Source of the DNA: Eledone cirrhosa
Taxonomy: Eukaryota
Assembly: GCA_964016885.1 (NCBI GenBank)
Contig: OZ024759.1
Location: 3,844,001 to 3,908,000, forward strand
Reading direction: 5' to 3'
Length of the DNA stretch: 64,000 bases
The notes beneath the pieces were generated by a model that made no database searches, had not been told where the DNA came from, and saw only the letters and a list, made by a program, of their open reading frames with translations. Made by a program: the position numbers and the translations under genes. Shown here one piece after another: positions 9,921 to 52,560 of this stretch; the first letter of the stretch is position 1; each line of letters opens with the position of its first letter.

Positions 9921-10757
9921 TTTACATGGTAGACATTATTTGAATTTTGAAAATGTGAGACCAGAGAAATTGCTTCATGTGACACTGTAAGAAAACATTA
10001 AAAAATGAAATGTATATCTTCTTCTTTATCATTAAGTATGTCAGCAGCAGCAGCACCACACACACACACACATATATATATACAGAGAGAGAGAGAGAGA
10101 AGAGAGAGAGTAGTTAATAATAAATACAAAGACCAAAATCTAGAGAGGGCTCAATAAGATAAGAGTTTTATGTATATATATATATATACATATATATGTA
10201 TCATCATCATCATCATCATCATTTTACGTCCACTTTTCCCTGCTTGCGAGGGTGGGACGGAAACTGATTCTGGTTTGATTTCTACAGCTGGATGCCCTTC
10301 CTACCACCAACCTTATTTACAGTGAGTGCTGGGTGCTTTTTTGCTGTGGCACCTCCACGACCACTTTGCAGTGGAATGATAGAGGCCCAAGTCCCTATCA
10401 TCTCATTTCTACAGCTGAGTAAACTGGAGCAATGTGAAATAAAGTGTCTTGCTCAAGGAAACAACACATCACCCGGTTTGAGAATTGAACTCACAACCTT
10501 TCGATTGCAAGGCCAATGCTCTAACCACTAAGCCATAGAGAGAGAGAGAAGTGAGAGAGTAGTTAATAATAAATAGAAACACCAAAATCTGGAGAGGGCT
10601 CAATAAGATAAGAGTTATATATATATATATGTATATATATAAGTTGAAAAAAATGAAAACGAAATTTCATTTCTCACTCTTAGTATGGCACTTACTTAAA
10701 TGTAAGTATGTATGTATACGTACATACATATATGTATACGGACGTACAGTAGCATGC

Positions 10758-21179: not shown

Positions 21180-23384
21180 CTGCAGAAAAACATGGTAAGA
21201 AAGTTAAAACAAAAAACAAATAGCAATGGTATTTGGTGGTGATGGTGGTGAGGAGGAGGGAGATTTGGGTGAAGTTTAGTCAAAAACTGATTGGCAAACA
21301 TGGGCTTGGACCAGTGCAAGATTTAGGGCACATGAAGCCCTGTGCTAGTTATGTTATGAGGCCTCTTACTCGTAAAAAATTCATCATAAAAAATTGTGCC
21401 AAATTTAGAATTAACCCTTTAGCATTTAAACCGGTTGTATTCGGCCAGAATTTTCTCAACTCTTTCTATTCAAACTGGCTGTAACTGGACACTCATACTT
21501 ATATTAAGGTATTGTTCTCAAAATAAATAACATCAAAATCTCATAGATTCGATATTATGTGAGATAATTATGAGGGCGGTGGATTGGCAGTATCGGTAGA
21601 GGGTCGGACGCCATGCTTTGCTGCATAGAGTTACGGCCCTTTATGATTTGAGTTCAATCCTGCCGATGTTAACTTTGCATTTCATCCTTATGGGGTTGAT
21701 AAAATAAAGTACCAGTCACTCACTGGGGTTGATTTAATCGACGTTCCCCCTACCCCAAAATTGCTGGCCTTGTGCCTATATAAAAAACCATTATGTGAGA
21801 TAATTATGAGGTAAAGCCTTTACTGTGACAATACAATAGTATATATAGAGTAATGTAAATGTTGTGTGAGATATTATGTGAGGTAAAGCCTTTACTGTGA
21901 CAATACAATAGTATATATAGAGTAATGTAAATGTTATGTGAGGTATTATGTGAGGTAAAGCCTTTACTGTGACAATACAATAGTATATATAGAGTAAAGT
22001 AAATGTTATGTGAGATATTATGTGAGGTAAAGCCTCTACTGTGACAATACAATAGTATATATAGAGTAATGTAAATGTTATGTGAGGTATTATGTGAGGT
22101 AAAGCCTTTACTGTGACAATACAATAGTATATATAGAGTAATGTAAATGTTATGTGAGATATTATGTGAGGTAAAGCCTTTACTGTGACAATACAATAGT
22201 ATATATAGAGTAATGTAAATGTTATGTGAGATATTATGTGAGGTAAAGCCTCTACTGTGACAATACAATAGTATATATAGAGTAATGTAAATGTTATGTG
22301 AGATATTATGTGAGGTAAAGCCTCTACTGTGACAATACAATAGTATATATAGAGTAATGTAAATGTTATGTGAGGTATTATGTGAGGTAAAGCCTTTACT
22401 GTGACAATACAATAGTATATATAGAGTAATGTAAATGTTATGTGAGATATTATGTGAGGTAAAGCCTTTACTGTGACAATACAATAGTATATATAGAGTA
22501 ATGTAAATGTTATGTGAGATATTATGTGAGGTAAAGCCTCTACTGTGACAATACAATAGTATATATAGAGTAATGTAAATGTTATGTGAGGTATTATGTG
22601 AGGTAAAGCCTTTACTGTGACAATACAATAGTATATATAGAGTAATCTAAATGTTATGTGAGGTATTATGTGAGGTAAAGCCTTTACTGTGACAATACAA
22701 TAGTATATATAGAGTAATCTAAATGTTATGTGAGGTATTATGTGAGGTAAAGCCTTTACTGTGACAATACAATAGTATATATAGAGTAATCTAAATGTTA
22801 TGTGAGGTATTATGTGAGGTAAAGCCTCTACTGTGACAATACAATAGTATATATAGAGTAATGTAAATGTTATGTGAGATATTATGTGAGGTAAAGCCTT
22901 TACTGTGAAAATACAATAGTATATATAGAGTAATGTAAATGTTATGTGAGATATTATGTGAGGTAAAGCCTTTACTGTGACAATACAATAGTATATATAG
23001 AGTAATGTAAATGTTATGTGAGGTATTATGTGAGGTAAAGCCTTTACTGTGACAATACAATAGTATATATAGAGTAATCTAAATGTTATGTGAGGTATTA
23101 TGTGAGGTAAAGCCTTTACTGTGAAAATACAATAGTATATATAGAGTGGTTTCTTTATTTGCCACTAGGGCACAAAAGGTAGGGACAGATACAAGGGGGG
23201 AAGTTTACATATAATTAACGAGTACAAAAATATAACAATGAAATAACAACAACAAACGAAGTCCTCAATAGGGAGGGGGCATTAACATGGGTCGCACACA
23301 CCCCGGAAAAAATGTGCAACCCTTCTCCTCAGGAGCACAAAGAGTAGGTGCTTCCCTCGTCTCCTCTTTTTCCTGTTCTTTCAC

Positions 23385-26300
23385 CTACAGGCTGATATAG
23401 AGAGAAGACCCATTCACTCTGGCCATTCTCCCTACTTTCACCCACCTTTCATAAAACTTGCTGGGGTAGAGCACCTCTCTCTCCATTCTGATCCTTCTTT
23501 TAAAATGGTATTTGAAAAAGAGGACCAGTTGTTGGCCGGAGAGAAAGGTGTCTGACCTCAGCCCTTTCAGCCTCGTCCACCATACAACTTCTTTAGCCAT
23601 GGCTATCACACAGAGAAAAACCGCCTCTCCTTCGTTTTTGAAAGGGGGAGGCGCTTTGATCGTGACAATGGACTCGGTGGTCAACCGGATTGGTTCCACC
23701 CTCAACAGTAGTCGTTCCACATAGCCCCACAGGTCAGCAATGCCTGGGCAGTGTACGAATGCGTGCGCAACGGTTTCGTCATCATGCACGCATCTCGGAC
23801 AGATCTTATTCAAAGGATCTCTACCTAGGCTCCCATGCCTGTGGAGCTTGTCTCGAACGGGTAGAGCCCCTCGGTAGCACTGCCAAGCCAGGGACTTTTG
23901 GAAGTTGTCCATCGGTCCAGGGCCAAACGTCCTACCGAACAGACTGGCCAGTTCATCTTCCTCTATGCCTAGAGCTTCTCCGAGAGCATCGTCGCACCTG
24001 CTGCGTACCAACCCTCTATAGAATGTCGAGGTGGAGTCTCCACTGATTGCCGGGTCCGCTTTCCAGAGGGCCGTGAGCGCCTGGGCACATTCAATGTGCC
24101 AGTCGCCCACTTTTCTCGGTCTTTGCTTGACCCAGGATTGCAGCTCGGTGAGCGAGACGAGTCTGGGAAAGGCTCGCCTCACAAACGGGGCCCACACCGG
24201 TTGACCGGTGAGGAATACCTGGAGGTGCCGTAGCCTTAATGCGTATTTACGCATCTGTAGCCACGGCATCCCCAGCCCTCCTTTCGAAGGGTGTTGACAG
24301 CAGATGGATCTCCTCACCAAAGGGGTCCGCTTGTTCCAAAGAAATTGGAACAGCGCGCACTCCATTTTGGCGAGTCTTTTCACTGGGCAAGGCACGACGG
24401 TCAAGCGGTAGTAGATGACGGATGCTATATAAGTATTCGCCACCTCCGCTCGACCTTTCAGGGATAGTTTGCACTGGGCCCACTTCTGGGTGAGTGCAAA
24501 CAGCCTGGCCGTTACCTCGTTCCAGTTTTTCTCCACCTGGAGGTCTGGTCCGAACCAGACCCCAAGCAGCTTCACCGGGCCCTCCGTCCAGCGTCCGAGG
24601 ACGTCGTTGGAGGGCATCGGTTTGCCTCTCCATGTTCCGAGTTGCAAACCGACGGACTTGTCCCGGTTCAGCTTGGCTCCTGTAAACCTTTCATATTCCT
24701 CCAGTAAGGTGCCGATCTCACCGATTTGCGAGGTTTTCGACACCATTACTGTCACGTCATCGGCGTAGGCCGACGCCGCTTTCTGCAATCCCGGTTCCAA
24801 AGGGATGCCCTGCAACCGCTCCAACTTCCGCAGTAGTGGCTCAAGAGCCAGCACATACAGTAGGGAGGAGAGAGGGTATCCCTGTTGGATGGATCGCATG
24901 ATTTGGAATGGCTCCGAGAGGTGGCCGTTCACCTTGACCCTTGAGCAGACGTTGCTGCTGTGCATCGCAGCAATCCAACCCCTGAAAACGGGTCCGAAGC
25001 CTGCCGCCGCGAGCACCGCATCCAGGTAACGATGGTCAACCCTATCGAAAGCTTTAGATTGATCCAAGTTGATCAGGGCCCCACCCCAAAGCCGGTTTCA
25101 TTCCCTACCCTCTCTATGATGTATCGCATAAGGTGGAGATTGTCGTGAATGGACCTGGACGGGATTGTGCATGTCTGCGCTTCTCCCACCAGGTTTCCAA
25201 CGACAAGCGCCAACCTCTTCGCTAACACCTTGGCCAAAATCTTTAACTCTGTATTTAGCAGAGTTATGGGCCTGAAGTTATTTATGTCATCCCCCTTGTT
25301 CTCATCCTTCCTCACCAGCGTAACTACGCCCTTGGTCACAGAACTGGGAATTCTCCCGTTCTGCTGCCAGTTGCAGTAGACAGCTTCGAAGATATCGGAG
25401 AACAAGTCCGGCATCGCTACATATAGCTCGTATGGTAGACCATCGAGACCCGGGGATTTGCGTTTGCTGCATTGGCTCAGCGCCGCCCCTATCTCAGCAG
25501 CTGAAATCGTCCTTTCGCAGGACTTCGCCTCCGCGTCCGAGAGGCGCGGCAGACCGTCGAGGTATGGATTGAAATCCATAGTCTCACCCGGCGCGCCGCC
25601 CCTCTCGAACAGTCATGCAAAGTGCCACTGAAAGGCCGCACACATCTGCCCAGGTTCAAGGATCACACGCCCATCCTGGTCCTTCAAAGACCGAATCGTG
25701 GACTTGTTACCACTTTTTGCCTCTGTCACTCGGGCCCAGCTCACAGCTTTGGCTCCCTCATTACCCAGAGCACGTATTTTACTCCTGACAACGCAGCCTT
25801 CATGCTTCACCTCAAAGAACTGGTCTAAGGCCATTCTTGATGCCAGCACGCCGGCTACATTGCCACTCCTAATCGCCTCATCTACTCTATCTACTAATTC
25901 CCTTTCCGTCTTGTTCCTATCCCTTGCTAATTCCTGACTAAAACCTATCGATTCTATTCTAATTGCTCTCTTAAGAGAGATTCACCACCTGTTGTTGACA
26001 ATTGCCCCTGTCAAACTCTGCTTAACTAACGTGCTAATCCGTTTACTGTAAGCTTTGCTTCTCGGTAAGGACAAGTTCAGCTTCCAGTAACCGGGTCCCT
26101 GTCTATGGGTTCTATCAAGGTTGGCTATGCAGGTCACTAACTTGTGATCCGAATAGTCAACCATGAACATTTTTGGACAGCTAAATGTGTCCCTATCCTT
26201 CTCTCTAACTAGGACCCTATCTAGGTACGACCTAGATGTTCCACTGCGATTGGTCCACGTCCATAGTGGTACAGTCGGAAAATCTAGTCGATATCTATCG

Positions 26301-26829
26301 GCCAGGTCAAATCGGCCGATTAACCTTTTGAGGCTTTTACACCCCCCTCTATTGGCACATGCCCCTACATAGTCCCAACGTGCATCCAGGATACCATTCC
26401 AGTCCCCCACTAAAAGCAAGGAGCGGGACGTTCCCAGAAAAGTTTCCAGACGTTGGAAGTATTCCGGCCGCGCTGCCCAAAAAGGGGCGTACACAGCTAT
26501 TAGTCTAAGGGCTCCACTTTCACTACTGCCGACGTCTAAAACCACCAGTCGACCCTCCGGGTCCAGGTGCACCTTCTGTATGGCGAGGCCCAGGTGTTTT
26601 CGCAGCAGAACAACAACTCCACCCCCACCCCCCCACCCGGTTGACAGAGAGATGCGAAGATCTCAAAGTCGTCGAAGAGGGGCGCCAGTTGGTGCTCGCT
26701 GCTGATCCTGGACTCGCAAATAGCCATTACATCCATTCTATGCGACCTGAGATCGTTTAAAAGTTTGCCTTGTTTCCAAGACAGTCCCAGGCCGCGTACA
26801 TTCAGACACCCAACTCTTATATCAGCCAT
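23385..26829 (-). pseudogene. Tx1/L1 ORF2 (APE endonuclease + RT) with 2 frameshifts and 2 in-frame TGA
   Basis: CLNVRGL, VGDWN, YLDRV, SDH, KSPGLDGL, FRPITLLN, DQSKAFDRV, QGYPLS, AYADD, CPRC...H...C. Confidence 0.92.
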
Positions 26830-26850
26830 GTTGGTTAAAAGAGGAAGGAC

Positions 26851-28562
26851 CTACCTGTTCGGCTCCTGAGGAGCAGGTTGCACAATATCCATGGGCGTAT
26901 TGGAGGGGTTGTTTGGTGGGGTGTTGTTCTGTGGTGGAGTGGGGGTGTTTGGTGAGGTGTGGGTGGGGAAACGTTTCAAGAGGACGCGGTTATAGGGTCG
27001 AGTACATGTTTTCCCCACGTCCTCAGGAAAGTTCTCTCTTAGTTTTGCATAGGTGTCCATTGGGAGTCTTATCATTTTTAAATGCGGTTTGTTGGCCGCG
27101 CTTGCAAAGAATTGCCCTTCAGTTTCCACCGAAGGGTCTTTGTGTATTGTTTTTACTAGTTCTTTGTTATTTGTGTTAATGTATGTATACTGTTTTATTT
27201 GTGTTGTGTTTGTTTGTTGTTCTTGTGTGTGCTTACGTTTTGTTGTATGTGTTATGTTTTGGGGTGGGGCGGATTTTGTTTGTTCTGTTTGTTTTGTTTT
27301 TGTTGGTGGTTGTGTGTTTGTTTCGTTTATGTTCGAGTGGTGCTTTCTTTTTTTCCTTTTTACAGGTTGGAAGGGTTCCTCTTCTTCGTCACTAGGTGCC
27401 GTTTCAGCTGGGTCCTCGTCCGTGTTGTCGGGTAGTGGTGTATTTTGGGGTTTTGTTGTATTTGTGTGTGTTTTGGGAGTTGTTTTGGGTGGGGCCGTGT
27501 CTTGTGTTATTTTTCCGTGTTGTTTTTGTTGTTGTTGTGGTGGTGGCGGTGGTGGTGTGTGGGGTGTAGGCAAAAGAGCCTTTTTTTTGTCAATTGAGGA
27601 CAAGCAGCCCTTAGATGACCCCTGCTTGAACAGTAGTAACATATGGGCCTCCTACCCTCGGCTGAAATGTATATAAATGTTTCTCCATCGAGGGACACCC
27701 TCTGTGGTATTCTAGCTATTCGTTCTGATCTCATTTGGACCAGAACCTCCACGCTCAAACCGCCGAAAACGTCTGTGGTGACTTCTCCTACTGAGAGGAT
27801 TCCGTCCTCGTCTTCTAAAAATCCTGTTAGTACCCAGGAAATGCATGCATTTGGCCGGATTCCGGAGACCCTTATCTTCTGCGTTCTTTTCCCTAAATAT
27901 GTGGGGAAAAATGTATGTAGCTTGGAAACAATTGGCGCCACAGAGTATTTCCTGGCCGTCAATTGATCCTTCATTAGGACCGTTATATTCCCATAGAGTG
28001 GCCCTTTTTGTATGAACGATATATCACTCCACACATTTTTTAGGACCAGCTCAATCTCTTTTTGGGATAATTGAGCTGGTTTCCTTGTTATGTTGGAAAT
28101 TGTTCTGAAAGATATCGTTCTTAGCGTCGTGTCTCTTTTGATTTCTTGTGGGGAGGTGATTGTGAAGTCTCCTCCTTCTTTGAAAGTTACATACTGTTTC
28201 GCTTCCTTCATCTTTTCTCTCAGAGTTGTAATGTCCAGTTGCTTGCAGGTTTGTGTTTTCCGGACCGCCTGTGCAAAGGAGGCACCAGTAGTGGGTTCGC
28301 TTTGTTTGGTGTTATCGTTATTTTTTCCTTGGTTGGTGTTGTGACTATTGCTGTTATTGTCGTTGTTGTTTTTGTCTGCGTTTATGTGACTTTCTGGGTT
28401 TTCACCCATTTTTACAAATTTTTCTTTTAATTCCGTGTTCCATGTTTCTTTTGCAGAAGTGAGGAGGGAAGACTTAGAGCCTTGTGGTTCTAGCTTCTCT
28501 GTATCACCTTTCTTAGGGGGCGTGGCTTTCACGTTAGGATGAGATGTGAAAATTCCGTCCAT
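26851..28562 (-). pseudogene. Tx1/L1 ORF1 (zinc knuckle), frameshift in A9 run near 27585
   Basis: MDGIFTSHP start; CYYCSSRGHLRAAC; continues in ORF 26851..27642 (KKKALLPTP). Confidence 0.82.
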
Positions 28563-30045
28563 TTCTATTAGTTTGCACACGTCAACACACGTCTCTCGTA
28601 TACGAGATGTTATGTGAGATAAAGCCTTTACTGTGAAAATACAATAGTATATATAGAGTAATGTAAATGTTATGTGAGATATTATGTGAGGTAAAGCCTT
28701 TACTGTGACAATACAATAGTATATATAGAGTAATGTAAATGTTACGTGAGATATTATGTGAGGTAAAGCCTTTACCACAAAAATACAATAGTATATATAG
28801 AGTAATGTAAATGTTATGTGAGATATTATGTGAGGTAAAGCCTTTACTGTGAAAATACAATAGTATATATAGAGTAATGTAAATGTTATGTGAGATATTA
28901 TGTGAGGTAAAGCCTCTACTGTGAAAATACAATAGTATATAAAGAGTAATGTAAATGTTATGTGAGATATTATGTGAAGTAAAGCCTTTACTGTGACAAT
29001 ACAATAGTATATATAGAGTAATGTAAATGTTATGTGAGGTATCATGTGAGGAAAAGCCTCTACTGTGACAATACAATAGTATATATAGAGTCATGTAAAT
29101 GTTATGTGAGATATTATGTGAGGTAATGCCTTTACCACAAAAATACAATAATATATATAGAGTAATGTAAATGTTGTATGAGGCATTATGTGAGGTAAAG
29201 CCTTTACTGTGAAAATACAATAGTATATATAGAGTCATGTAAATGTTATGTGAGATATTATGTGAGGTAAAGCCTTTACTACAAAAATACAATAGTATAT
29301 ATAGAGTAATGTAAATGTTACGTGAGATATTACGTGAGGTAAAGCCTTTACTGTGAAAATACAATAGTATATATAGAGTCATGTAAATGTTATATGAGGT
29401 ATTATGTGAGGTAAAGCCTCTACTGTGAAAATACAATAGTATATATAGAGTCATGTAAATGTTATATGAGGTATTATGTGAGGTAAAGCCTCTACTGTGA
29501 CAATACAATAGTATATATAGAATAATGTAAATGTTATGTGAGGTATTATTTGAGGTAAAGCCTTTACTGTGACAATACAATAGTATATATAGAGTAATGT
29601 AAATGTTATGTGAGATATTATGTGAGGTAAAGCCTTTACTGTGACAATACAATAGTATATATAGAGTAATGTAAATGTTATGTGAGATATTATGTGAGGT
29701 AAAGCCTTTACTGTGAAAATACAATAGTATATATAGAGTAATGTAAATGCTAAAGAGTTAAAACATAACTTAACAAATGTTCTTACATAAAGTTAGGATA
29801 GAAGGTTTTAAGATAGTTATAAACATTTTATCATAAACTAAGATGCGTGGCTCTGTGTTTAGAGTATTCGCCTCACAATCGTAAGGTCATGAGTTTGTTT
29901 ACCAGCGGAGTGTTGTGTCCTTGAGCAAGACACTTTATTTCATATTGTTCCAGTTCACTCAGCTGGCAAAAATGAGTTGTACCTGTAATTCAAAGGGTCA
30001 GCCTTGTCACACTCTGTGACATGCTGAATCTCCCCGAGAGCTATG

Positions 30046-33779: not shown

Positions 33780-33829
<50 letters not shown>

Positions 33830-36095
33830 ACGGAGGAAATGTGGTAAGGAACCAGGTGGACCATAATGCACCAAAGTACTCAATACTTAGGGTAGTAGAG
33901 TGGGTAATAGGAACGAGTAGGACCCCGACGGCTGAGCTCAAGCCGTTTCGACGGCTAATTCTGGACTAAATGAACATTTTTATCCTGGTATTTGAATAGC
34001 CGAGCTTCTAAAGGGGTAATTCCATATATGGTAAAAGTGATTGTCACGAGGATTGGTCAAAAGTTTGTTGTTGAGACATAATAATTCTATGATGGCAATT
34101 TGTGGAGGGAAGGGGTAGCTGAACCTGCCAGTAGGAGAAAGAGGGAGAGGAGGTGGAGGAGACCCAGTCATGCGTTGATAGTGCCGACTACAGCTGGGCA
34201 TGAGGTCAAAGAGGATACTAGGGAGGGGGAGGGGGAGGAAGTCGAAACAATTAGTAAAACAATTAGTAAAACAATATGGGGTAAATATATAGAAAAATAC
34301 CGAGAGTGTTAAAAAGCAATTAAATGTAAAAAAAAAAAAAATAAACAATTTCTGGTTACTACGACCTAAGTCTCTCACTGGCACTGCTAGGCTAAAGAAA
34401 GGTTTACTAGGTGGGACGGAATTATAATGAGACCCTTTTAAGAGGTATAAGTAATAAACCAAGTATATCTTACGGTGACGGGTCAACAAGTGAGGGGTCA
34501 AAATACTAAAGAAACTACCACGAAATAATAAATAAAGGTTTCTACCCCAGGCACAAGGCCAGCAACCACCCAGTGCAAAAAGTAAACTAATACGAAATAA
34601 TAATTCAGAGTCCTGAAAAAGAATACTAATACTATCTCTAAGGGTGCCGCCACGATACAAAAGTTCTAGTGCAAACTACATAAAAGCTCGTACGAAGTAA
34701 AATTTGATACGGAAAATTAGTTCAGAATCCCCCCCCCCCCCCCAAAAAAAAATACTGATATATGAGAAATTAAAGCAAAGATACCACTAAGAAATATAGA
34801 AAGCACGGAAAAGGGGCAGCGGTCGGATAAGGAGGCAAGTATCCGGGGTCTAACACATCTGCTATAAAAAGCGGAGTCGGCCAAATCTATCATAGAATAG
34901 GGGTAGGGGGTGGGGGTAGTGAAACTACAAAGGACCGAGGGGCTGCCTCGGGTGGGCGAGAAAATGAAAAGGACGACAACAAAGAAAGAGGACTGGGGTG
35001 GAAGGACTAGGGAGGGATGGGGGGAAGAAGGAAATATAGAGGAAGCGATAAAAAGATATAAAAGATCTTACGTCTACCGTACCTTTGCAAGCAGGGGTTA
35101 CCCATTACAAAATCGGCAAGTGGGGTGTTATAGCCCTAGTCTCCCCTCCCCGGGTCATTATGGGGTTTGAGGGCGAGGTAAGTCCTACGCAATCTATGTT
35201 TACATGCAGTAACCAGTCCATCTTTCATTTGTAAAGTTTCCTCCGAGCATAAATTGCACGGACGGCGTCCTCCCGTGTAAGAGTTGGCTCTGGACAGTAA
35301 GCTCCAAGTGAGATCATAGGTAATGTTGTTATCCTTGAGGTCCCATATGTGGCCCGAAAGTGTAGTGGCGTGACGCCGGGCCGGGTTTCGGAAGGTATTC
35401 CTGTGTTGGTATAGCCGGGTCTTGCGGTTAATCCTATATAAGCTTTGTTGGAGGTGTCCGTCCTCACGTTGCACTGGTAGATCACATTACGATCTCTGCA
35501 TCTGTTGTCGAGGGGGAAAATGGATCCATCAGGACAGTTGCACCTCCTGGTCAGCTCTCCACTGCTATTTAGGTTATTTTTTCCATAGGGGTTGAGTTTT
35601 TTGTTGTTAGAGGAGACGATATTTTGTGCAAAGTTTGGTGTGGTGCTGTAAGAGAGTTTAATGGTATTTTTGTTAATTACGTTGTGGTAGCGGTGTTGTA
35701 GTGGGAAGTGTTTTTCAATGAGCCTAAAGAAGATTTTCCCGATAGGAGTTGTCACCTCGGCGTTGTGGGGAGGATTGAACTGGTTACTGCATGTAAACAC
35801 AGATTGCGTAGGACTTACCTCGCCCTAAAACCCCATAATGACCCGTGGGGTAGACTAGGGCTATAACACCCCACTTGCCGATTTTGTAATGGGTAACCCC
35901 TGCTTGCAAAGGTAGACGTAAGATCTTTTATATCTTTTTATCGCTTCCTCTATATTTCCTTCTTCTCCCCATCCCTCCCTAGTCCTTCCACCCCAGTCCT
36001 CTTTCTTTGTCGTCGTCCTTTTCATTTTCTCGCCCACCCGAGGCAGCCCCTCGGTCCTTTGTAGCTTCAGTAGCCCCACCCCCTTCCCCTATTCT
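33830..36095 (-). mobile_element. 5'-truncated Penelope-like element (GIY-YIG endonuclease) with inverted partial pLTR
   Basis: ORFs 35225..35800 and 35136..35474: FNPPH, IKLSYS, CNC, VIYQ...YIGLT, LSGHIWDLK, CNLC; ~34900-35216 inverted at ~35779-36095. Confidence 0.9.
33922..34017 (-). ncRNA. Hammerhead ribozyme variant (U3-A8) in the Penelope pLTR; G5 replaced by U, probably inactive
   Basis: Minus strand ACCCC-TTTAGAA-GctCGGCTA...TAGCCGtC-GAAACGGCT[tgagctc]AGCCGTC-GGGGT. Confidence 0.65.
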
Positions 36096-36259
36096 ATATA
36101 TATATATATATATGTGTGGAAAAAATGAAACAAAATTTCATTTCTCACTCTTAGTGCGGCTGTTACTTAAATATAAAGTATGTATACATACATACATATA
36201 TGTATACAGACGTACAGTAGTATATATACATGCACACATATATATATGTACGTATGGCA

Positions 36260-39200
36260 CTCAATGACAATGTCACAGATTAAGACAAATTCACCTCCTG
36301 CTGCAAGACGAGAATACAAGGACCCCTCTTTATTTCAGACACAGATGACCAACAAAATCCCGTCTCCCACACCCCTCCCTGCCCCTCCAACCCATCCATC
36401 CCACCCTCCCAACTTAGAGTTGGTACCATGAACGTAGGCACATTGAAAGGTCGCTCAAATGAGGTTGTAGAGATGCTTGAACGTAAAGAAATTGATGTTT
36501 GTTGTATTCAAGAGACTAGGTGGAGAGGGGGATCTGCCAGATTCATCGTGGGTAAAAAACGATGCTATAAACTTTTCTGGGTGGGAAATGACAACGGACA
36601 GGGTAGTGTAGGAATTATGTTAGCTGAAAAATGGGTAGATAAGGTAATTGACGTAAATATAGTGAATGACAGAATAATTAAATTAAGACTAGTTCTAAAT
36701 AGAATTACTGTGACAATAATATCTGCTTATGCACCCCAATCTGGTCTCCCTGATGTTATAAAGGACAGGTTCTATGAGATGCTAATGCACACTACCTCCC
36801 AAATAACCGACAGCGACTACTTAATTATTGCTAGCGATCTAAACAGTCACGTTGGACAACATAGTGATGGCTATGATGGAATTCATGGAGGCTATGGGGT
36901 TGGAAATAGAAATGAGAAGGGTTTCAGAATCCTGGAATTCTGTGATGCAAATAGCCTAACTATATGTAACACAAACTTCAAAAAACGTGAAAACCACTTG
37001 ATCACCTATAGATCAGGGGAACACGCCAGCCAGATAGATTATATCCTTACTAGAAGACGGGACAAAATGTCTGTTGTAAACTCTAAATCCCTCCCCCGTG
37101 AAGAATGCCCCTCCCAACATCGCCTAGTAGTTAGTGACCTCATAGCCAGGAATAGACGTACTCGACGACAGAGGAGGCCTACCTTGAGGAGAAGAATATG
37201 GAAGTTGAAGGACCCCATAGCCAGTGACAAATTTAAAAGCTTATTATTTGTTGCCTTTGACAATAAGGAAGAGCAATTAGAGACGTGCAATAGAGAGGAA
37301 CAGTGGCAATCCTTGAAAGTGAACCTGCTGAAAGCAACGGATGAAATCTGTGGCTGGAGCAGACCTATTGGCAGGAGGAGAGTAACTTGGTGGTGGAACA
37401 GTGAGGTGGAAGAGACAATCAAGGGCAAAAAGCAGGCTTGGAAAGAATGGCAGGATGGGGGGCGTAGAGAGCACTATCAAGTGGCCAGGAGAGAAGCTAG
37501 GAGACAAGTGTACCTTGCAAAAAGGGTAGCAGAGGATAGAAAGTTCAAGCATGTTCTGCAACGTGAGGACCAAAAACGTGAGGTGTTCAGGATTGCTAGA
37601 CAATGTGTCAAGGAAAACCGTGATATTGTCGGGGAGAAGTGTGTCCGTAATGATAATGGTGTACTTGCGCTCACTGATACTGATAAGCCTGGAAGAGGCA
37701 CTACGAGAGACTATTAAATGAGAAGAATAAATGGGAAAAAGATAGTCTGCCCCAAATCGATCCAATGGTGCAAGGTAAAGGTAGTATAATAAGTAAGGCA
37801 ATCAAAGATATGAAGACAGGCAAGGCAGCTGGGCCTTTGGAGGTAGTTGCTGAGATGCCTTCAACATCTGGTATGGCGGGACACACTATGGTCACACGTA
37901 TAGTTAACCAAGTAATACAGAATGGAGTCATACCGAAAGACTGGCGTAGCAGCATCATCATTAACTGCTACAAGGGTAAAGGGGATGCTCTAGATAGGGG
38001 AAACTATAGAGGCATTAAGTTAGTTGACCAGGTCATGAAGGTCACAGAAAGAGTAATAGCGCAACTAATCAGAGAGCGAATTGATCTAGATGAAATGCAG
38101 TTTGGGTTTGTGTCAGGTAAAAGTACCACAGACGCTCTTTTCCTTGTACAACTACAAGAGAAGTACCTAGCTAAAAGTAAACCCCTCTACTTAGCTTTTG
38201 TAGACCTGGAGAAAACTTTTGACAGAGTCCCCCGCTCCATTATCTGGTGGGCTCTTAGAAAACTAGATGTAGATGAATGGCTGGTGAGAGCTATACAAGC
38301 TATGTATAATGAAACAGTCAGTAAGGTTAGAATTAACAATGAATATTGTGAAGAATTTAGTGTAAAAGTTGGCGTTCATCAAGGCTCTGTCCTTAGCCCC
38401 CTCTTATTTATTATTGCCCTTCAGGCTATAACAGAGGAGTTCAAGACCCGCTGCCCATGAGAACTCCTATACGCAGATGATCTAACGCTCATAGTTGAAT
38501 CAATGGCTGAACTAGAGAAGAAATTCGAAACATGGAAGCATGGCCTAGAATCAAAAGGCCTTAAAGTTAACTTGTCTAAGACTAAAGTTCTAGTTTGTAG
38601 AAAGGAAAATAGGGCACAGGTGCCCTCAAGGAAATGGCTATGCTCAGTGTGTAGGAAAGGAGTAGGCAGAAATTCCATTTTATGTCCCAAATGCAAAGTA
38701 TGGGTACATAAAAGATGTAGTGGGATCACAGGTAAACTATCTCAGAACGTAGACTTTATATGTGGCCAATGCTCAGGTGCAATAAGTAGCAAGTGTCCAA
38801 AGGATACTAGCTCCTTCCATTGCCCAGATGGTTCTATAGAAATAGTAGACACTTTCCGTTACCTGGGTGACGAAATCAACAGTGGTGGAGGGTGTTCTGA
38901 AAGTACAGTAGCCAGAGTCAGAACGGGATGGAAAAAGTTCAGAGAGCTTATACCGTTGTTGGCCACAAAAGGTTTCTCTCTAAAAATGAAAGGCAGATTG
39001 TATGATGCCTGTTTCTCTCTAAAAATGAAAGGCAGATTGGTATGGCCATGTGATGCGCATTAAAGACGACAGTTGTATAAAAAAAGTGCAGGGCGATCAA
39101 AATTGATGGTAGTTACGGAGTAGGTAAACCCAGAAAAACCTGGGATGATCTGATAAATTCCGACCTTACATACTTACATCTCTCTAAGACAATGTCTCTG

Positions 39201-39618
39201 GACCGAGATCTTTGGTGCTATGCAGTAATACAGAAGACCCGCCTTGCCTATGTACAAAACGAAACCTACAGTCAGTAGGCACCTCTTAACCAAATATACA
39301 CCCCAATCTACTACCCCTACCCTATCCTCCCACTCCCACCAACAGCATGAGAAAATGAAATCGAGTTTGTGTAGGTGTCACGGGAAAGAAAAAAAAAACA
39401 CACAGTCCACGCTGTAATGTGGTCGTGTAGGTAACATGGTAAAAAGTTCCCAGTTCCACACTGTAAATGTGGTTGGTGTTAGGAAGGGCATCCAGCCGTA
39501 GAAAACCTGCCAGATAGTTCTATATGAGTGAGACACGGTCACCCGACCAGCCTTGCCTCAACTCCCGTCTAACCCATGCTAGCGTGGAAAATGGACGTTA
39601 AACGAAGATGATGATGAT
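36260..39618 (+). mobile_element. Near full-length but disrupted RTE LINE (APE, RT, Cys-rich finger, (GAT)n tail)
   Basis: ORFs 36428..37717, 37765..38460, 38503..39063; QFGF, DLEKTFDRV, QGSVLSP, ELLYADD after a TGA. Confidence 0.93.
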
Positions 39619-39624
39619 ATATAT

Positions 39625-40078
39625 AGGAAAATGTATGACCTCGACAGTAGAGCTCAAGCCGTTTCGACGGCTATTTCTGGACTAAATCAGAATTTTTAGC
39701 CTGGTAAATAAATAGCCGAACTTTTCAAGGGGTACTTCCTTATATGGGAAGATTGTAGCTGTCAAGAGGATTGGTCAAAAATTCCTGGTAAACACAATTA
39801 AGTCTATCATGGCAGTGGGTGGGAGGTGGGGATGGCTGAACTTGCCTGTAGAGCAAAGAGGGAGTGGGTGGAGCCGGTCAAGCGTTGAAAGTGAAATCTA
39901 AACAGCAAATTCTAAGGATTGTGTAAGAAAGTAGGCCAACTTTCATACTTTCCACCATAGCGATTAAACTGCATACCCTGCTTTCCAGGTTACCCTTTGC
40001 CACTGATATATATATATTTATATATTGAGTACTCTGGTGCATTATGGTCCTTCTGGTTCCTTACCACACCTCCTTTGT
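39625..40078. mobile_element. Penelope pLTR remnants (39630-39900 direct and 40022-40075 inverted relative to 33830-34190)
   Basis: Sequence homology read directly. Confidence 0.75.
39638..39733 (-). ncRNA. Hammerhead ribozyme variant with U3-A8 core
   Basis: Minus strand ACCCC-TTGAAAA-GttCGGCTA...TAGCCGtC-GAAACGG...CTGTC-GAGGT. Confidence 0.68.
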
Positions 40079-40149
40079 TATATATATACAACGGCGGCGA
40101 AGATTGGAAACCGAATCTGAGCTTTCCCACCTCTGGGACAAGCCATGGT

Positions 40150-43100
40150 AAGTTGTTTACGCTCAAGAGACTAACCCCCTGGGGGATGCTAAACACAGGT
40201 CAGAGGTGTTTAAGCCTGACAGAAAATAGGTCAGAGGATATATCCATCTTTCTGAGTTGTTTACGCTTGGCAAACTAATCCCTTGGGAGACTCTAACCAA
40301 AGTTCAGAGGATATATCTATCCTTCTAACTTCAACTCTTATAAATACAGGGGTTGTTTACGCCCCGACAGAAAAGAAGTGATATACAGACAAGACAAGTG
40401 GCCTTTACAAGCTCTCGTCACGAAATACCAGTCCGTCACTAATTTCCTCTCCTGCCTGGCTGATCGATACAACCACATATTCCGTTACAACTGGTGACCC
40501 CGTAAAACAGACACACAACTTCTGATCATCCACTACAAACGATGTCTCTAGCACACGACGATTCATCTACGGCAGAAATGGCAGTGAGGGGGGCATTTAC
40601 ATTAAGAATTCCACCATTCTGGGTGCACGATCTAACACTGTGGTTCGCGCACATCCAAGCGCAGTTCGCATAATAACACACGACCCACCTGTCGCTGCAC
40701 GACCTAGAAGGCTACCACCAGACCGGCTGAAGTCCGTCAAACAAGAATTTCAGCACATGCTGGATCTCGGCATCATACGTCTGTCCTCACCCATACACTG
40801 TGTACCCAAGAAGTCGTCGAACGACTGGCGAATCTGTGGCGACTACCGTGCACTAAACAACTGCACCGTTCCTAACTCTTATCCAGTACCTCATCTACAG
40901 GACTTCTCTAGCTCGCTGCACGGGGCTCGCATATTTTCGAAGATCGATCTTGTCGAGCTTAACAATCAGATACCCGTTGAGCCCGCAGATATTCCAAAGA
41001 CCGCAGTCACAACACCCTTTGGAATGTTCGAATTTCTGCGTATGCCTTTCGGTTTGCGAAATGCAGCGCAAACATTCCAGCGATTCATCGATACAGTCAC
41101 CAGGGGTCTACCTTTTGTATACGCATACATTGACGACTTACTGGTGGCCAGCAGCTCCGACGAAGGACATGAGAAACACCTGGATCTCCTATTCACACGT
41201 TTGCGTGAATATGGAATTGTTATCAACCCCAGCAAATGTGAGTTCGGAGTTGCGTCCCTTCATTTTCTGGGACACATCATTGACAAAGATGGTATTTGCC
41301 CACTTAAGGAGAAAGTCAAATCCATCATTGATTTTCCACAACCTATATCTCTCCGCAAACTGCGAGAATTTCTTGGCCTGGTAAACTTCTACAGAAGATT
41401 TATACCCCACTGTGCAGAGACAGCCCAACCACTCACAGATTTGCTGCGGCAGCGTACAACCAAAAACGCAAACATCAAGCTTCGCTGAGTTGAAGAAAAT
41501 GTTGTCCGAGGCTACAATGCTGAGTTACCCCAAACCTGACGCCCCAATGTGTTTATTGACTGATGCATCCGATTTCGGAGTTGGAGGTGTGCTTCAACAA
41601 CTCTCTGGCGATATTTGGCGACCTGTATCTTTTTTCTCTAAGCGATTAAAACCCGCCGAAACTAAGTACAGCACATTCAGTCGTGAATTATTGGCAGCAT
41701 ACCTTGCTGTCAAGCATTTTCGACACATGCTAGAAGGTCGTGTGTTCTCTATATACACCGACCACAAACCACTAGTGTACGCGTTCAATGCCAAGCCTGA
41801 CCGACACTCACCCAGGGAGGTCCGACATCTGGACTTCATTTCTCAGTACACTACTGATATTCGGTACATTAAGGGTGCCACCAACTCAGCAGCTGATGCC
41901 CTATCGCGCATGGAGCTTAAGGCAATCCACACCACTGCCACTATCGACCTCCAGAAGATTGCAGCGGATCAACAGAATGACGAGGAACTGCTGCAACTCC
42001 GGAAATCATCCTTGAAATTGAAGGAATGCCTGCTGCCCTCTTCTTCGGGTTATATTTGGTGTGACATCTCCACAGGCCGCGAGCGCCCATACGTGCCCCG
42101 GAAACATCGACGCGACGTTTTCTCGACACAGCATTCTCTGGCACATCCTGGCGTCTGCGCCACGCAGAAACTGATGGTTGCCCGCTTTGTGTGGCCCAAC
42201 ATCAACAAGGACACCCGCGAATGGGCTAGGAACTGCATCGCGTGCCAGAAGGCGAAAATTCACCGGCACATCAAAGCCCCGATCGCTTCTTTCGCAACAC
42301 CTGATGCACGGTTCCAACATGTGCATATAGACATAGTTGGACCTTTGCCTCCTTCTCAAAACTACACTCATCTTCTCACCTGTGTCGACCGATTTTCTCG
42401 CTGGCCAGAAGCTTTTCCCCTGATGGATATTACTGCGGAAACTGTTGCCAAAACGTTAGTGTTTCACTGGGTTTCGCGTTTCGGCACACCCGTGACCATC
42501 ACTACGGATAGAGGACGTCAGTTCGATTCGAACCTATTTACCGAGCTGCCTCGTCTCCTCGGGTGCAAACACATCCATACAACAGCGTATCACCCTGCCG
42601 CTAACGGCATGGTAGAACGCTTACACCGCCAGCTAAAATCATCTATCAAGGCTTACGAAGACTCCACTAACTAGTTCGAATACCTCCCACTCATTCTTCT
42701 TGGTATTTGTTCCACTGTTAAAGAGGGAGTCGGACATTCTCCGGCTGAAATCGTGTATGGCACCGTACTCACTCTACCCGGACAAATGATCACTCCTGTT
42801 TCGCCACAAGAACTTCCAGACCCTACAAAATATGTGCACCGTTTACGGTCATCAATGTCGCATCTGTCTCCTTCAGCCCCTAAACAACAGCACGTTACTT
42901 CACACATACCAAAAGACATCGATACATGTTTTCGTTAGAAATGACGATATTCCATCGCAACTTCGTCCACCGTATTCCGTCCGGGCCCTACAAGGTGATA
43001 CAGAAATGCCCTAAGTATTTCGTCCTCGACTTGAACGGGAAGCGAAATACCGTCTCCATTGATCGTTTAAAAAAAGCGTTCATAGAACAGGAATTGCCAC

Positions 43101-44261
43101 CAGTACCCACCGTTTCTCCAGACTCACCAACAACTTTGCCCGACACAAACACGGCAAATATTGCACACCAAATCCGGAAGAACAGTCCGATGGCCCACGC
43201 CATGGGATACGTACAAGTTTATCGGGTAAGTACAAATTATGCATCTGGTCGACATTTCGGCTAATTTGTACATTTCAACGAATCGGCCAATTTCTGTGGT
43301 CATGAACTACACACAAATCAATTAACTCTGTGCATCACCCACATCAAAAGAACAGACAAAAGAACATTTTTCTGTTTCTATGAAATGAACAAACTTTTAA
43401 TCAACAAACTTTTCGTACGAACATTTTCAATATTATGTAACATCACAGTACATTTTCCTGAATGTAAATTTCTTTTGCTTTGCATGTTTTCTTCCATGTC
43501 TCCTGTTTGTAAATGACTTTCATGTGTTTTTTTATTTTTACTGATTTTCTTCAACAACACACCTAGTCATACCTATCTTCATTTCACATGCACCTAGATC
43601 GTTCAATCTTAACTTGTTTACGCTCAAGAGACTAACCCCTTGGGAGAGGCTAAACGCAGGTCAGAGGTGTTTACGCCTGACAGAAAATAGGTCAGAGGAT
43701 ATATCCATCTTTATGACTTGTTTACGCTTGGCAAACTAATCCTTGGGAGACTAACCAAAGTTTAGACGATATATCTATCCTTCTAAATTCTACTCTTATA
43801 AAGACAGGGATTGTTTACGCCAAAAACAGAAAACAAGTGGGATACAGACAAGACAAGACGTTTTACAAGCTCTCGTCACGAAAAACCAGTCTATCACTTA
43901 TTCTCACCTTCCTGGCTGATCGCTGACTCCTGCAATACAAATAAGTAAATATACTGATACGCCGCACACACGCATTCATAGTGAGTCCAGCATTTGTACA
44001 CGTATCATTCATTTCTGTTTACACGTATTATAATCGTATTCTGTGATATTTGAATTTACGTGGCTCGAAGAGCCACCAAATTATTGTATGAATATTTTGT
44101 GTCAATTATTTTATCATTCAATATTCAAATTGAATATTGTTGTAATAAAATAAACTTTGTAACAACACTCCTGGTATTTTTCTTTACACCGAAACCACCA
44201 TACCAACAGTTACATCCATCCATCCACTTGTCGTTACAACCACACATAATATTCCGTTACA
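40150..44261 (+). mobile_element. Gypsy/Ty3 LTR retrotransposon, internally deleted
   Basis: LTRs ~40150-40489 and ~43612-44261, both ending TTCCGTTACA; PBS TGGTGACCCCG (matches tRNA-Trp 3' end); domain order RT-RNaseH-IN. Confidence 0.92.
40542..43100 (+). pseudogene. Gypsy gag N-terminal stub joined to RT, RNase H and integrase, with frameshifts and stops
   Basis: LRIPPFW..WF..IQAQF gag motif; [40 protein letters not shown]/Cxx[25 protein letters not shown]. Confidence 0.9.
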
Positions 44262-44560: not shown

Positions 44561-44984
44561 AAGTGTTTAAAATTTAAACTTATTAAATAAGTTTCGATGT
44601 TATTAAAGAGTATATCGTAAGGAAGGGACATCTTAAGGCTTTAATTATGAACAAATTTTTATATTTTCATTCCATTATTGTTTTACTGATTGTGTTTTGC
44701 TCTAATCTACTACAAACCCTTCATAGATTGGTCTCTCTGTAACATGGTTGTTTCTGGAACGTATCATGGCTTAGTGGTTAAAGCATTGGGCTTGCAATCT
44801 AAAGGTTGTGAGTTCGATTCTCGGACAGGGTGTTGTGTTGTGTCCTTGAGCAAGACACTTTATTTCACGTTACTCCAGTTTACTCAGCTGTAGAAATGAG
44901 TTGTGCCAAGCTATATCAGTCATAACCTTTCTCTTGGACATATATATAGTGTATATATACTGTACACAGTGTATATATATCTAT

Positions 44985-51689: not shown

Positions 51690-52560
51690 ATATTAACTGA
51701 AATCACAGTTGAGGGAAATATAGAAGAATATTTTATAAGAAATATAATATAAAAAATATTACAAGAAAAACATCTGTATATTCTGTTGAAGAAGAAATCA
51801 TTATGCCAAATAAATTGACAAAGAAGATTAAATGTGTAACACAATCTAAAGTGTTTAGTATTGCTGGTGAGATGACAAAGGTTAGAGAAGAGAAGCCATA
51901 TCACTGTGATATCTGTGATAAATCATTCTCTCAAAGTGGTACCTTAACTACTCACAAACGTATACATACAGGAGACAAGCCATATCACTGTGATATCTGT
52001 GGTATATCATTCTCTGGGAAAAGTAGCCTAACTACTCACAAATGTATACATCATCATCATCATCATCATTTTACGTCCGCTTTTCCCTGCTTGCAGAAGA
52101 GAAATCATAATGCATTGACATCAGTGATAAATCCTTCTCTCAAATTTGTGAATTAATGAGAATACAAATACATATCATTGTAACATCTTAGGGAAATCCT
52201 TCTCTTTGAATGTTACATTAACTATACACACACATATACATACAGCTGGGAAGCCATATCACTTTGATATATTTGGTACATCATTCTCTAAATGTTGTGG
52301 CTTCACTAGACACCAACATCTACAGGAGAGGAACCATATCACTGTGATGTCTGTGATAAATCCTTCTCTAAATGTTGTGGTTTCACTAGACACCAACATA
52401 TACATACAGGAGAGGAACCATATCACTGTGATGTCTGTGATAAATCCTTCTCTAAATGTTGTGGTTTAATTAGACACTAACATATACAGGAGAGGAACTA
52501 TATCACTGTGATGTCTGTGGTACATCTTTCTCTTATAAAGATTACTTAATGCAACACAAT
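51690..52560 (+). pseudogene. Degenerate tandem C2H2 zinc-finger gene relic, interrupted by an RTE 3' tail (~52050-52095)
   Basis: [36 protein letters not shown]; later fingers frameshifted. Confidence 0.85.

What the first reader, a model, noticed from the sequence alone, without database searches (positions are those of the whole stretch)
33922..39733. Penelope pLTR carries hammerheads with a covariant U3-A8 core and a long stem II
Seen: two homologous 96-nt minus-strand segments (33922-34017 and 39638-39733) have stem I ACCCC/GGGGT (GAGGT in the second), stem II CGGCTA/TAGCCG around a long loop, GAAA, a true hairpin stem III and a GUC triplet. The core reads UUGAAAA (39.7 kb) or UUUAGAA (34.0 kb) instead of CUGANGA. 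Established: C3-G8 is a tertiary Watson-Crick pair that can covary to U3-A8, and Penelope pLTRs carry hammerheads. Inference: this is a family-specific variant that a canonical motif search would miss. An alternative hairpin, AGCCGT-CGAA-ACGGCT, can sequester the GAAA and could act as a conformational switch.
Basis: partly seen in the sequence, partly recalled or inferred. Interest (0 to 1): 0.75.

Follow-up and report, generated by a model that had tools for sequence, protein, structure and literature searches.

The report
Retroelement hammerhead with drifting core pair
These are two decayed copies of a hammerhead (self-cutting RNA) motif at the end of a very abundant Penelope-like jumping gene; its U3-A8 core is an already published variant, but the family kept spreading through a long phase with that pair mismatched while the rest of the fold stayed conserved, so the ribozyme is likely weak or conditional rather than essential, and the proposed switch is not supported.

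Summary
Both segments are type I hammerhead motifs at the pLTR end of a Hydra-clade Penelope-like element (5,463 full motifs, 50,843 3' halves genome-wide). The family core is UUGANAA with N7 free. The 34.0-kb copy has a private G5U change, the 39.7-kb copy broken stems; both are likely dead. Core and stems are conserved across subfamilies, and stem II shows compensatory changes.

U3-A8 in Penelope hammerheads is published (PMC4209133). Within this family positions 3 and 8 do not covary: U3-A8 4,129, C3-A8 1,119, C3-G8 5. The C3-A8 copies form a long grade between older and younger U3-A8 subfamilies, with the ORF under purifying selection and core plus stems unchanged (0 of 44 sites against 18 of 149 background). 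Insertions end 20 or about 99 nt past the cut site, so templates were uncut or re-ligated. Most copies are head-to-head stubs starting inside stem/loop II, likely the RNA's 5' end. The alternative hairpin can form but shows no covariation.

Cleavage and expression are untested. The scan noted these features before on other DNA of this genome.

The parts
33922..34017 (-). Hammerhead motif, copy A: stem I 34017-34013 / 33926-33922; core U3 34012, A8 34007, A9 34006; G10.1 34005 with C11.1 33950; stem II 34002-33997 / 33957-33952; GAAA 33949-33946; stem III 33946-33941 / 33933-33928 with palindromic GAGCUC loop; C17 33927
34010..34010 (-). Private G5U change in the core of copy A (family has G5); likely inactivating
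33941..33956 (-). Alternative hairpin (stem II 3' arm pairing with stem III 5' arm, burying GAAA); can form, no covariation
33960..33974 (-). Equivalent of the zone (-33 to -47 from C17) where most genomic stub arms begin; inferred RNA 5' end
33830..33921 (-). 3' extension of the element past the hammerhead: short insertion end at +20 (33907), long end at about +99 (33830), followed by (TA)n at 33783-33829
34018..35138 (-). 3' UTR / pLTR of the Penelope-like element between ORF end and hammerhead
35139..35779 (-). C-terminal fragment of the element's ORF (linker CxCx5C, GIY-YIG-type endonuclease), 85-95% identical to P0001, frameshifted near 35423; 5'-truncated at about 35780
35776..36097 (+). 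Inverted partial copy of 34892-35220 (5' inversion typical of PLE insertions)
39638..39733 (-). Hammerhead motif, copy B (older subfamily): U3 39728, G5 39726, A8 39723, GAAA from 39665, C17 39643; mismatches in stems III and I
39623..39938 (-). 5'-truncated pLTR copy carrying hammerhead B, ending at the short (+20) end
40023..40088 (+). Tail-only piece of the same family (long end), head-to-head with copy B, between TA repeats

Best explanation
The two segments are decayed copies of a type I hammerhead motif with a U3-A8 core at the pLTR end of a high-copy Hydra-clade Penelope-like retrotransposon; the fold is conserved by selection and likely cleaves only weakly or conditionally, so that the element likely transposes from uncut RNA. 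Shown: the identity of the element, copy numbers, conservation of core and stems, compensatory change in stem II, an amplified C3-A8 phase of the lineage, insertion ends at +20 and about +99 past the cut site, and stub arms starting at -33 to -47. Inferred: the RNA starts inside stem/loop II of the 5' pLTR, so the 5' copy is only a half-hammerhead; the element's RT starts at the two internal sites and extends both ends of a cut (TA)n; copying from the 5' copy runs off the RNA end and gives head-to-head stubs, copying from the 3' copy gives long insertions; the full hammerhead trims read-through or tandem RNA at GUC at a low rate, perhaps helped by the element's protein or by pairing of two copies through the palindromic loop III.
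For: Element: tandem pLTR-ORF-pLTR copy L095 with a 719-aa ORF carrying Hydra-clade motifs; nearest Atlas clusters at 0.99, with GIY-YIG and RVT_1 families further down. Core selected without bias: in the first 100 of 5,463 stem-anchored copies U4-G5-A6 is intact in 99, A8 in 99, N7 takes all four bases (my count). Across 7 subfamily majorities, variable sites: core 1 of 14, stems 3 of 30, background 78 of 121 (Fisher p 6e-11; without the oldest subfamily 2 of 44 against 56 of 148, p 4e-6). Stem II has three pairs with change on both sides, covariation above 500 of 500 shuffles (few independent events). Not essential at full speed: 1,119 C3-A8 copies form a grade between U3-A8 groups in both the pLTR and ORF trees (one clade rejected, p-AU 0.001), with pN/pS 0.21 across the interval. 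Insertion ends cluster at +15 to +19 and +96 to +101 (first ATATAT), none at C17. 72 of 90 arms begin at -33 to -47; 14 of 19 short and 33 of 44 long inverted pairs combine one short and one long end. Published parallels: PAc starts RT internally at two sites, extends both strands, needs protein for hammerhead cleavage, and inserts normally with dead hammerheads (PMC11167929).
Against: No cleavage or expression data: no RNA holder was listed. Core and stems stayed unchanged even in the C3-A8 interval (0 of 44 against 18 of 149, p 0.007; core alone p 0.18), which could mean that the fold serves a non-catalytic role, or that C3-A8 is more active than assumed. I read no measurement of a C3-A8 hammerhead; its weakness is inferred from G8C and C3G data and recalled knowledge. 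The ORF tree roots inside the C3-A8 grade on a long outgroup branch, so the order of events rests on the pLTR tree and on copy divergence (4.7% oldest, 0.5% youngest; small groups of 3-8). The stub zone could be an RT stall, not an RNA end. Arms ending at the cut site are few (3 of 12 partner ends downstream of -24; 4 of 193 arms) and a similar cluster lies at +48 to +52.
Confidence: 0.62

Rival explanations
1. The fold is kept for a non-catalytic job (binding site for the element's RT/endonuclease, promoter or template-start structure) and no longer cuts at all.
For: The lineage amplified with an unpaired 3-8 position while the stems stayed fixed; all insertions keep sequence on both sides of the cut site; the 3' half overlaps the inferred RNA start and lies next to the two RT start sites.
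Against: The unpaired catalytic residues U4, G5, A6, A9, G12-A14 and C17 never change across subfamilies while N7 does, the hammerhead-specific pattern; the pair was restored to U3-A8 in the younger subfamilies; a few arms end exactly at the cut site.
Confidence: 0.17
2. The C3 lineage stayed catalytically active through a shifted register: C3 pairs with the G at position 7 (core CUGA-GA-A, no N7, one extra A before G10.1), so the 'mismatch' is a second compensated core.
For: C3 and G7 entered together: C3 without G7 has only 47 copies, U3 with G7 in the older background only 15, while U3 subfamilies use all four N7 bases; core and stems unchanged in that interval; an extra nucleotide between 9 and 10.1 is common in PLE hammerheads (PMC4209133).
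Against: One lineage event only, seen after the fact; no N7-less hammerhead found in print (0 papers for 'hammerhead' with 'CUGAGA'); C3 also stabilises the non-hammerhead fold in prediction (P(alt) 0.65-0.91).
Confidence: 0.12
3. One reading: an efficient U3-A8 ribozyme whose activity is regulated by a conserved conformational switch (alternative hairpin sequestering GAAA).
For: The hairpin is within about 1 kcal/mol of the hammerhead fold in the copy-A subfamily and dominates some nascent or 5'-shortened RNAs in prediction.
Against: No covariation (351 of 500 shuffles as high); the changes that are compensated in stem II leave a U-G wobble and two mismatches in the alternative fold; predicted occupancy ranges from 0.0 to 0.91 between subfamilies; it follows from stems II and III sharing the same arm sequence.
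Confidence: 0.09

Closest known systems
U3-A8 minimal hammerheads of Schistosoma mansoni Cercyon PLEs (Cervera and de la Pena 2014, PMC4209133; parts 1-2 of 4 read, supplement not seen)
   Same: Type I hammerhead in the pLTR; U3-A8 core (about 1,300 hits there); short helix I, enlarged helix II; G10.1-C11.1; palindromic loop 3.
   Different: Here stem III is a real 5-6 bp hairpin, stem II is extended around a roughly 30-39 nt insert, there is no extra nucleotide between 9 and 10.1, and a fifth of the copies carry C3-A8.
Hydra clade of C-terminal EN+ PLEs, including Hydra-1_Obim (Craig et al. 2021, PMC8557442; passages, section 11, supplement parts 1-2 and search hits read)
   Same: RW(K/R), DKT, CxCx5C linker, CxxC and CxH around the conserved E and N, (TA)n insertion, 3' hammerhead.
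   Different: All Hydra hammerheads in their File S2 have a C3-G8 core and loop 2 of 3-10 nt; Hydra-1_Obim has different stems, so this is another family; unit length about 3.1-3.5 kb.
PAc (Poseidon of Anolis carolinensis; Frangieh et al. 2024, PMC11167929; parts 1-2 of 4 read)
   Same: Two internal RT start sites downstream of the hammerhead that define a tail; both DNA strands extended; AT-rich targets; uncut RNA as template.
   Different: PAc has a C3-G8 minimal hammerhead overlapping the ORF start and a 30-40 nt tail; here the tail is about 80 nt and the ATG lies 190 nt past the cut site.
Natural U3-A8 hammerheads (Perreault et al. 2011, PMC3088659; passages read)
   Same: The 3-8 pair covaries to U3-A8 in nature, and such cores are reported active in vitro.
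   Different: Rare single examples; no amplified unpaired C3-A8 lineage described in the passages read.

Membership tests
Type I hammerhead ribozyme | Three-way junction, stems I-III, ends in stem I | tested here: met
   90% of cells paired, slides 27-55%
Type I hammerhead ribozyme | Core U4 G5 A6 N7 A9, G12 A13 A14, A15.1-U16.1, H17 | tested here: met
   Invariant across 7 subfamily majorities with N7 free; window copy A itself fails at G5
Type I hammerhead ribozyme | Watson-Crick 3-8 pair | tested here: inconclusive
   Met in 4,134 of 5,274 copies (U-A, C-G); 1,119 C-A and 21 U-G
Type I hammerhead ribozyme | Self-cleavage at NUH | not testable with these tools
   No RNA data; weak hint from arm ends at the cut site
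Type I hammerhead ribozyme | Loop I / loop II tertiary contact | not tested
   No candidate contact was searched for
Rfam hammerhead families | Match to a covariance model | tested here: not met
   No hammerhead family among 101 hits at E up to 5
Metazoan PLE minimal hammerhead (min-HHR) | Absent or 1-2 bp helix III | tested here: not met
   5-6 bp stem III
Metazoan PLE minimal hammerhead (min-HHR) | Extra nucleotide between 9 and 10.1 | tested here: not met
   G10.1 follows A9 and pairs with C11.1 in 29 of 29 rows
Metazoan PLE minimal hammerhead (min-HHR) | Palindromic loop 3 allowing a dimer | tested here: met
   GAGCUC in all 7 subfamilies; predicted duplex -26 to -31 against -10 to -14 kcal/mol for two hairpins
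Hydra-clade PLE | RWK motif and DKT instead of DKG | tested here: met
   RWR and DKT in P0001
Hydra-clade PLE | CxCx5C linker; CxxC and CxH in a C-terminal GIY-YIG domain; no CCHH | tested here: met
   Read from P0001 and compared by eye with the paper's alignment; Pfam gave no hit
Hydra-clade PLE | Insertion in (TA)n, pLTRs, tandem and inverted structures, tail | tested here: met
Hydra-clade PLE | Placement in an RT phylogeny with the published Hydra elements | not tested
   Published sequences could be read but not loaded into the tools

The most novel reading that the evidence does not exclude
The element splits its hammerhead across the two ends of its RNA: the transcript starts inside stem/loop II, so its 5' end is a bare substrate strand that is cut only when the 5' half of the hammerhead in the 3' pLTR pairs with it, and the lineage ran for a long time on an undescribed core (C3 paired with G7, no N7) before returning to U3-A8. 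The subfamily series is then a fossil record of ribozyme tuning in a living retroelement.
Probability: 0.13. Interest if true: 0.78.

Novelty: new variant of a known kind. Interest (0 to 1): 0.42.

Why it matters
What hammerheads do in Penelope-like elements is an open question (PMC8557442 calls their function unclear and asks whether they merely parasitise the elements). This family offers a dated natural series of cores (U3-A8, C3-A8, U3-A8 again) in one autonomous lineage with thousands of copies, and tens of thousands of stubs that likely mark the RNA's start and the two RT start sites. Measuring a handful of natural RNAs would show how much cleavage an element needs. The U3-A8 core alone is ordinary, and the two window copies are likely dead.

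Tried and rejected
Rfam scan: no hammerhead hit. Pfam on the full ORF: no family; clade assigned by motifs. Sequencing runs: no RNA holder listed, which says nothing about expression; contigs of three runs of unrecorded kind confirmed ends and the C3 and G5 states only. Single-sequence folding: no unusual stability. Alternative hairpin as a conserved switch: rejected on covariation. Within-family 3-8 covariation: rejected. C3-A8 as scattered decay or one dead side branch: rejected by subfamily structure, trees and pN/pS. That the RTE-type and LTR-type ORFs between and beside the two copies belong to the element: rejected. First conservation test was inflated by poor upstream alignment and was redone with gap columns dropped. 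The pLTR tree dropped 57 of 170 rows with short or unalignable upstream DNA; the ORF tree used 55 of 229 copies. Papers not held: Luense et al. 2017 and Przybilski and Hammann 2007, known here only through citing papers; they, and the unseen supplement of PMC4209133, may already describe long-stem or mismatched cores. Searches for prior description. A genome-wide count of arms ending exactly at the cut site, by subfamily, was not made.
Full report
OBSERVATION. Both segments are present as described and are 81 of 96 identical. Homology extends over 279 nt at 77%. Rfam gives no hammerhead hit among 101 matches at E up to 5. The window lies in a 3.0-Gb animal genome, inside a segmentally duplicated unit. 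A 20-nt pattern for the 5' half has 6,831 exact matches and a stems-only pattern 5,463, each with 0 for the reversed control. Copy A's core UUUAGAA is private: the 13 loci that carry it are duplicates of this locus, and 17 of 17 other loci read UUGAGAA (confirmed in unassembled contigs). Copy B has mismatches in stems III and I, and some of its own duplicates still have the intact stem I. G5 is an invariant core residue (established knowledge), so both window copies are likely inactive.

THE ELEMENT. Copy A ends a 5'-truncated element (33830-35780, minus) with an inverted piece at 35776-36097 and a (TA)n target. Its ORF fragment is 85-95% identical to the C-terminus of a full ORF found in L095. 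L095 has the tandem layout pLTR-ORF-pLTR, hammerheads 3,118 nt apart, first ATG 190 nt after the cut site. The protein has RWR, DKT, a CxCx5C linker and CxxC/CxH around the endonuclease E and N, the motifs given for the Hydra clade (PMC8557442 section 11; alignment in its supplement). Pfam finds nothing; the Atlas gives eukaryotic clusters at 0.99 and GIY-YIG/RVT_1 clusters at 0.96-0.97. The Hydra hammerheads in that paper's File S2 all have C3-G8 and short loops 2, so this is a different family.

IS IT A HAMMERHEAD? In the first 100 of 5,463 copies chosen on stems only, U4-G5-A6 is intact in 99, A8 in 99, GAAA in about 93, and N7 takes all four bases (my counts). An older subfamily (171 exact matches) has a G-C to A-U change in stem II and a longer helix. 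Across 7 subfamily majorities the core varies at 1 of 14 sites and the stems at 3 of 30, against 78 of 121 in flanks and loop II (p 6e-11); without the oldest subfamily 2 of 44 against 56 of 148 (p 4e-6). On 29 distinct rows, three stem II pairs change on both sides and the covariation score exceeds all 500 shuffles; these are few independent events. Loop III holds a GAGCUC palindrome in all subfamilies, and a predicted two-molecule duplex is much more stable than two hairpins, as in the dimer model for PLE hammerheads (PMC4209133; PMC6765202).

THE 3-8 PAIR. With identical anchors: U3-A8 4,129, C3-A8 1,119, U3-G8 21 and C3-G8 5. So there is no covariation inside the family; it exists only against the canonical core and between families. 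U3-A8 in PLE hammerheads was reported in 2014 (about 1,300 hits in Schistosoma) and in other natural hammerheads in 2011. The C3-A8 copies are not random decay. In a tree of upstream pLTR DNA (113 of 170 rows kept) and in a tree of the ORF end (55 of 229 copies) they form a grade between older U3-A8 (copy-B-like) and younger U3-A8 (copy-A-like) groups; one clade is rejected (p-AU 0.001). The ORF tree's root falls within the grade on a long branch, so direction rests on the pLTR tree and on copy divergence (4.7%, 4.0%, 2.2-2.7%, 0.5%; groups of 3-8). Across the interval the ORF shows 21 synonymous and 16 non-synonymous changes (pN/pS 0.21), and core plus stems show 0 of 44 changes against 18 of 149 (p 0.007; core alone p 0.18). 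C3 arrived together with G7: intermediates number only 47 and 15. Single 3-8 mismatches abolish or strongly cut activity where measured (G8C, C3G); I read no measurement for C3-A8.

THE SWITCH. The alternative hairpin exists because stems II and III share an arm sequence. Predicted occupancy is 0.64 in the copy-A subfamily, 0.65-0.91 in C3-A8, 0.31 in the youngest, 0.01-0.02 in two others and 0.0 in the oldest. It has no covariation (351 of 500 shuffles as high), and the changes compensated in stem II damage it. It may damp cleavage in some subfamilies, but it is not a conserved switch.

WHAT THE INSERTIONS RECORD. Among 229 full copies, 3' ends cluster at +15 to +19 and +96 to +101 nt after C17 (first ATATAT) and none at C17, so the copied RNAs were uncut or re-ligated there. 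The 3' half of the motif has 50,843 exact matches. Of 90 arms taken from the first 100 listed hits (about 9 hits, mostly full-length, were not fetched), 72 begin at -33 to -47, 10 at -25 to -29, and 6 are full; 79 of 84 short arms have an inverted partner, and 14 of 19 short and 33 of 44 long pairs join one short with one long end. This fits PAc, which starts reverse transcription at two internal sites, extends both strands, and inserts normally with dead hammerheads. The main stub zone lies beyond the core of stem II, which fits an RNA 5' end better than a stall at the helix base; Drosophila Penelope has an internal TATA-less promoter (PMC2377424 passages). This is inference. Ends at the cut site occur (3 of 12 partner ends downstream of -24; 4 of 193 arms) but microhomology blurs them and another cluster lies at +48 to +52, so they are only a hint of cutting in vivo. 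A split complex of the 5' half with an RNA starting at -40 is favourable in prediction but takes the hammerhead shape in only some copies.

MECHANISM AND VERDICT. Most likely (0.62): a weak or conditional hammerhead, kept by selection, trims read-through or tandem RNA, while transposition uses uncut RNA. Rivals: non-catalytic fold (0.17), shifted C3-G7 register (0.12), regulated switch (0.09). No RNA run was listed, so expression and cleavage are open. What is less ordinary is the long mismatched phase with a conserved fold and the stub record of the RNA's ends; I did not find these in the papers searched, but two key papers and one supplement were not available. Earlier notes of this scan reached the same readings on other DNA of this genome; they are not independent support. 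New variant of a known kind; interest 0.42.

Noticed in passing
whole window (G000:C20:3844001-3908000): The window lies in a roughly 100-kb unit that is repeated many times on C20 and also on C27, C23, C16; both hammerhead loci recur at 98-100% identity.
   Followed up: partly
G000 genome-wide; L271-L340: 50,843 exact matches to the 3' half of the motif against 5,463 full motifs; most are head-to-head stubs pairing one short and one long end.
   Followed up: yes
L132, L137, L142, L150 and others: A small subfamily with a U3-G8 wobble core near the base of the tree; the oldest subfamily also has several U3-G8 copies.
   Followed up: partly
L151, L153, L156, L159, L160, L166, L173: Other hammerhead families with long stem II and short palindromic stem III, some C3-G8 and some U3-A8, so the pair does covary between families in this genome.
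   Followed up: no
L277, L278, L306, L308: A second small cluster of arm ends at +48 to +52 inside the tail, possibly a structure-caused stop.
   Followed up: no
L288:1500-1600: An arm with a deletion between the two 8-nt direct repeats that form the 3' arms of stems II and III (template slippage).
   Followed up: no
window 36284-39063 (+): Broken RTE-type LINE (endonuclease, RT, PHD-like finger) between the two hammerhead copies; fragments of the same family at 1657-2711, 45.2-46.5 kb and 53.7-54.8 kb.
   Followed up: partly
window 40149-43922: LTR retrotransposon (RT, RNase H, integrase; frameshifted pol) with 319-nt direct repeats at 40149-40466 and 43610-43922.
   Followed up: no
window 23385-27651 (-): LINE with endonuclease, RT and zf-RVT domains, flanked on both sides by arrays of a 72-nt satellite (21791-23147, 28604-29749).
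   Followed up: no
window 44767-44824 (+), 10478-10535 (-): tRNA-like heads of a repeated SINE-like element.
   Followed up: no
window 51889-52533: 80-84 nt repeats that look like degenerate C2H2 zinc-finger coding units.
   Followed up: no
run X5 (organism B): A second organism holds pieces of the same element, including both halves of the hammerhead region.
   Followed up: partly
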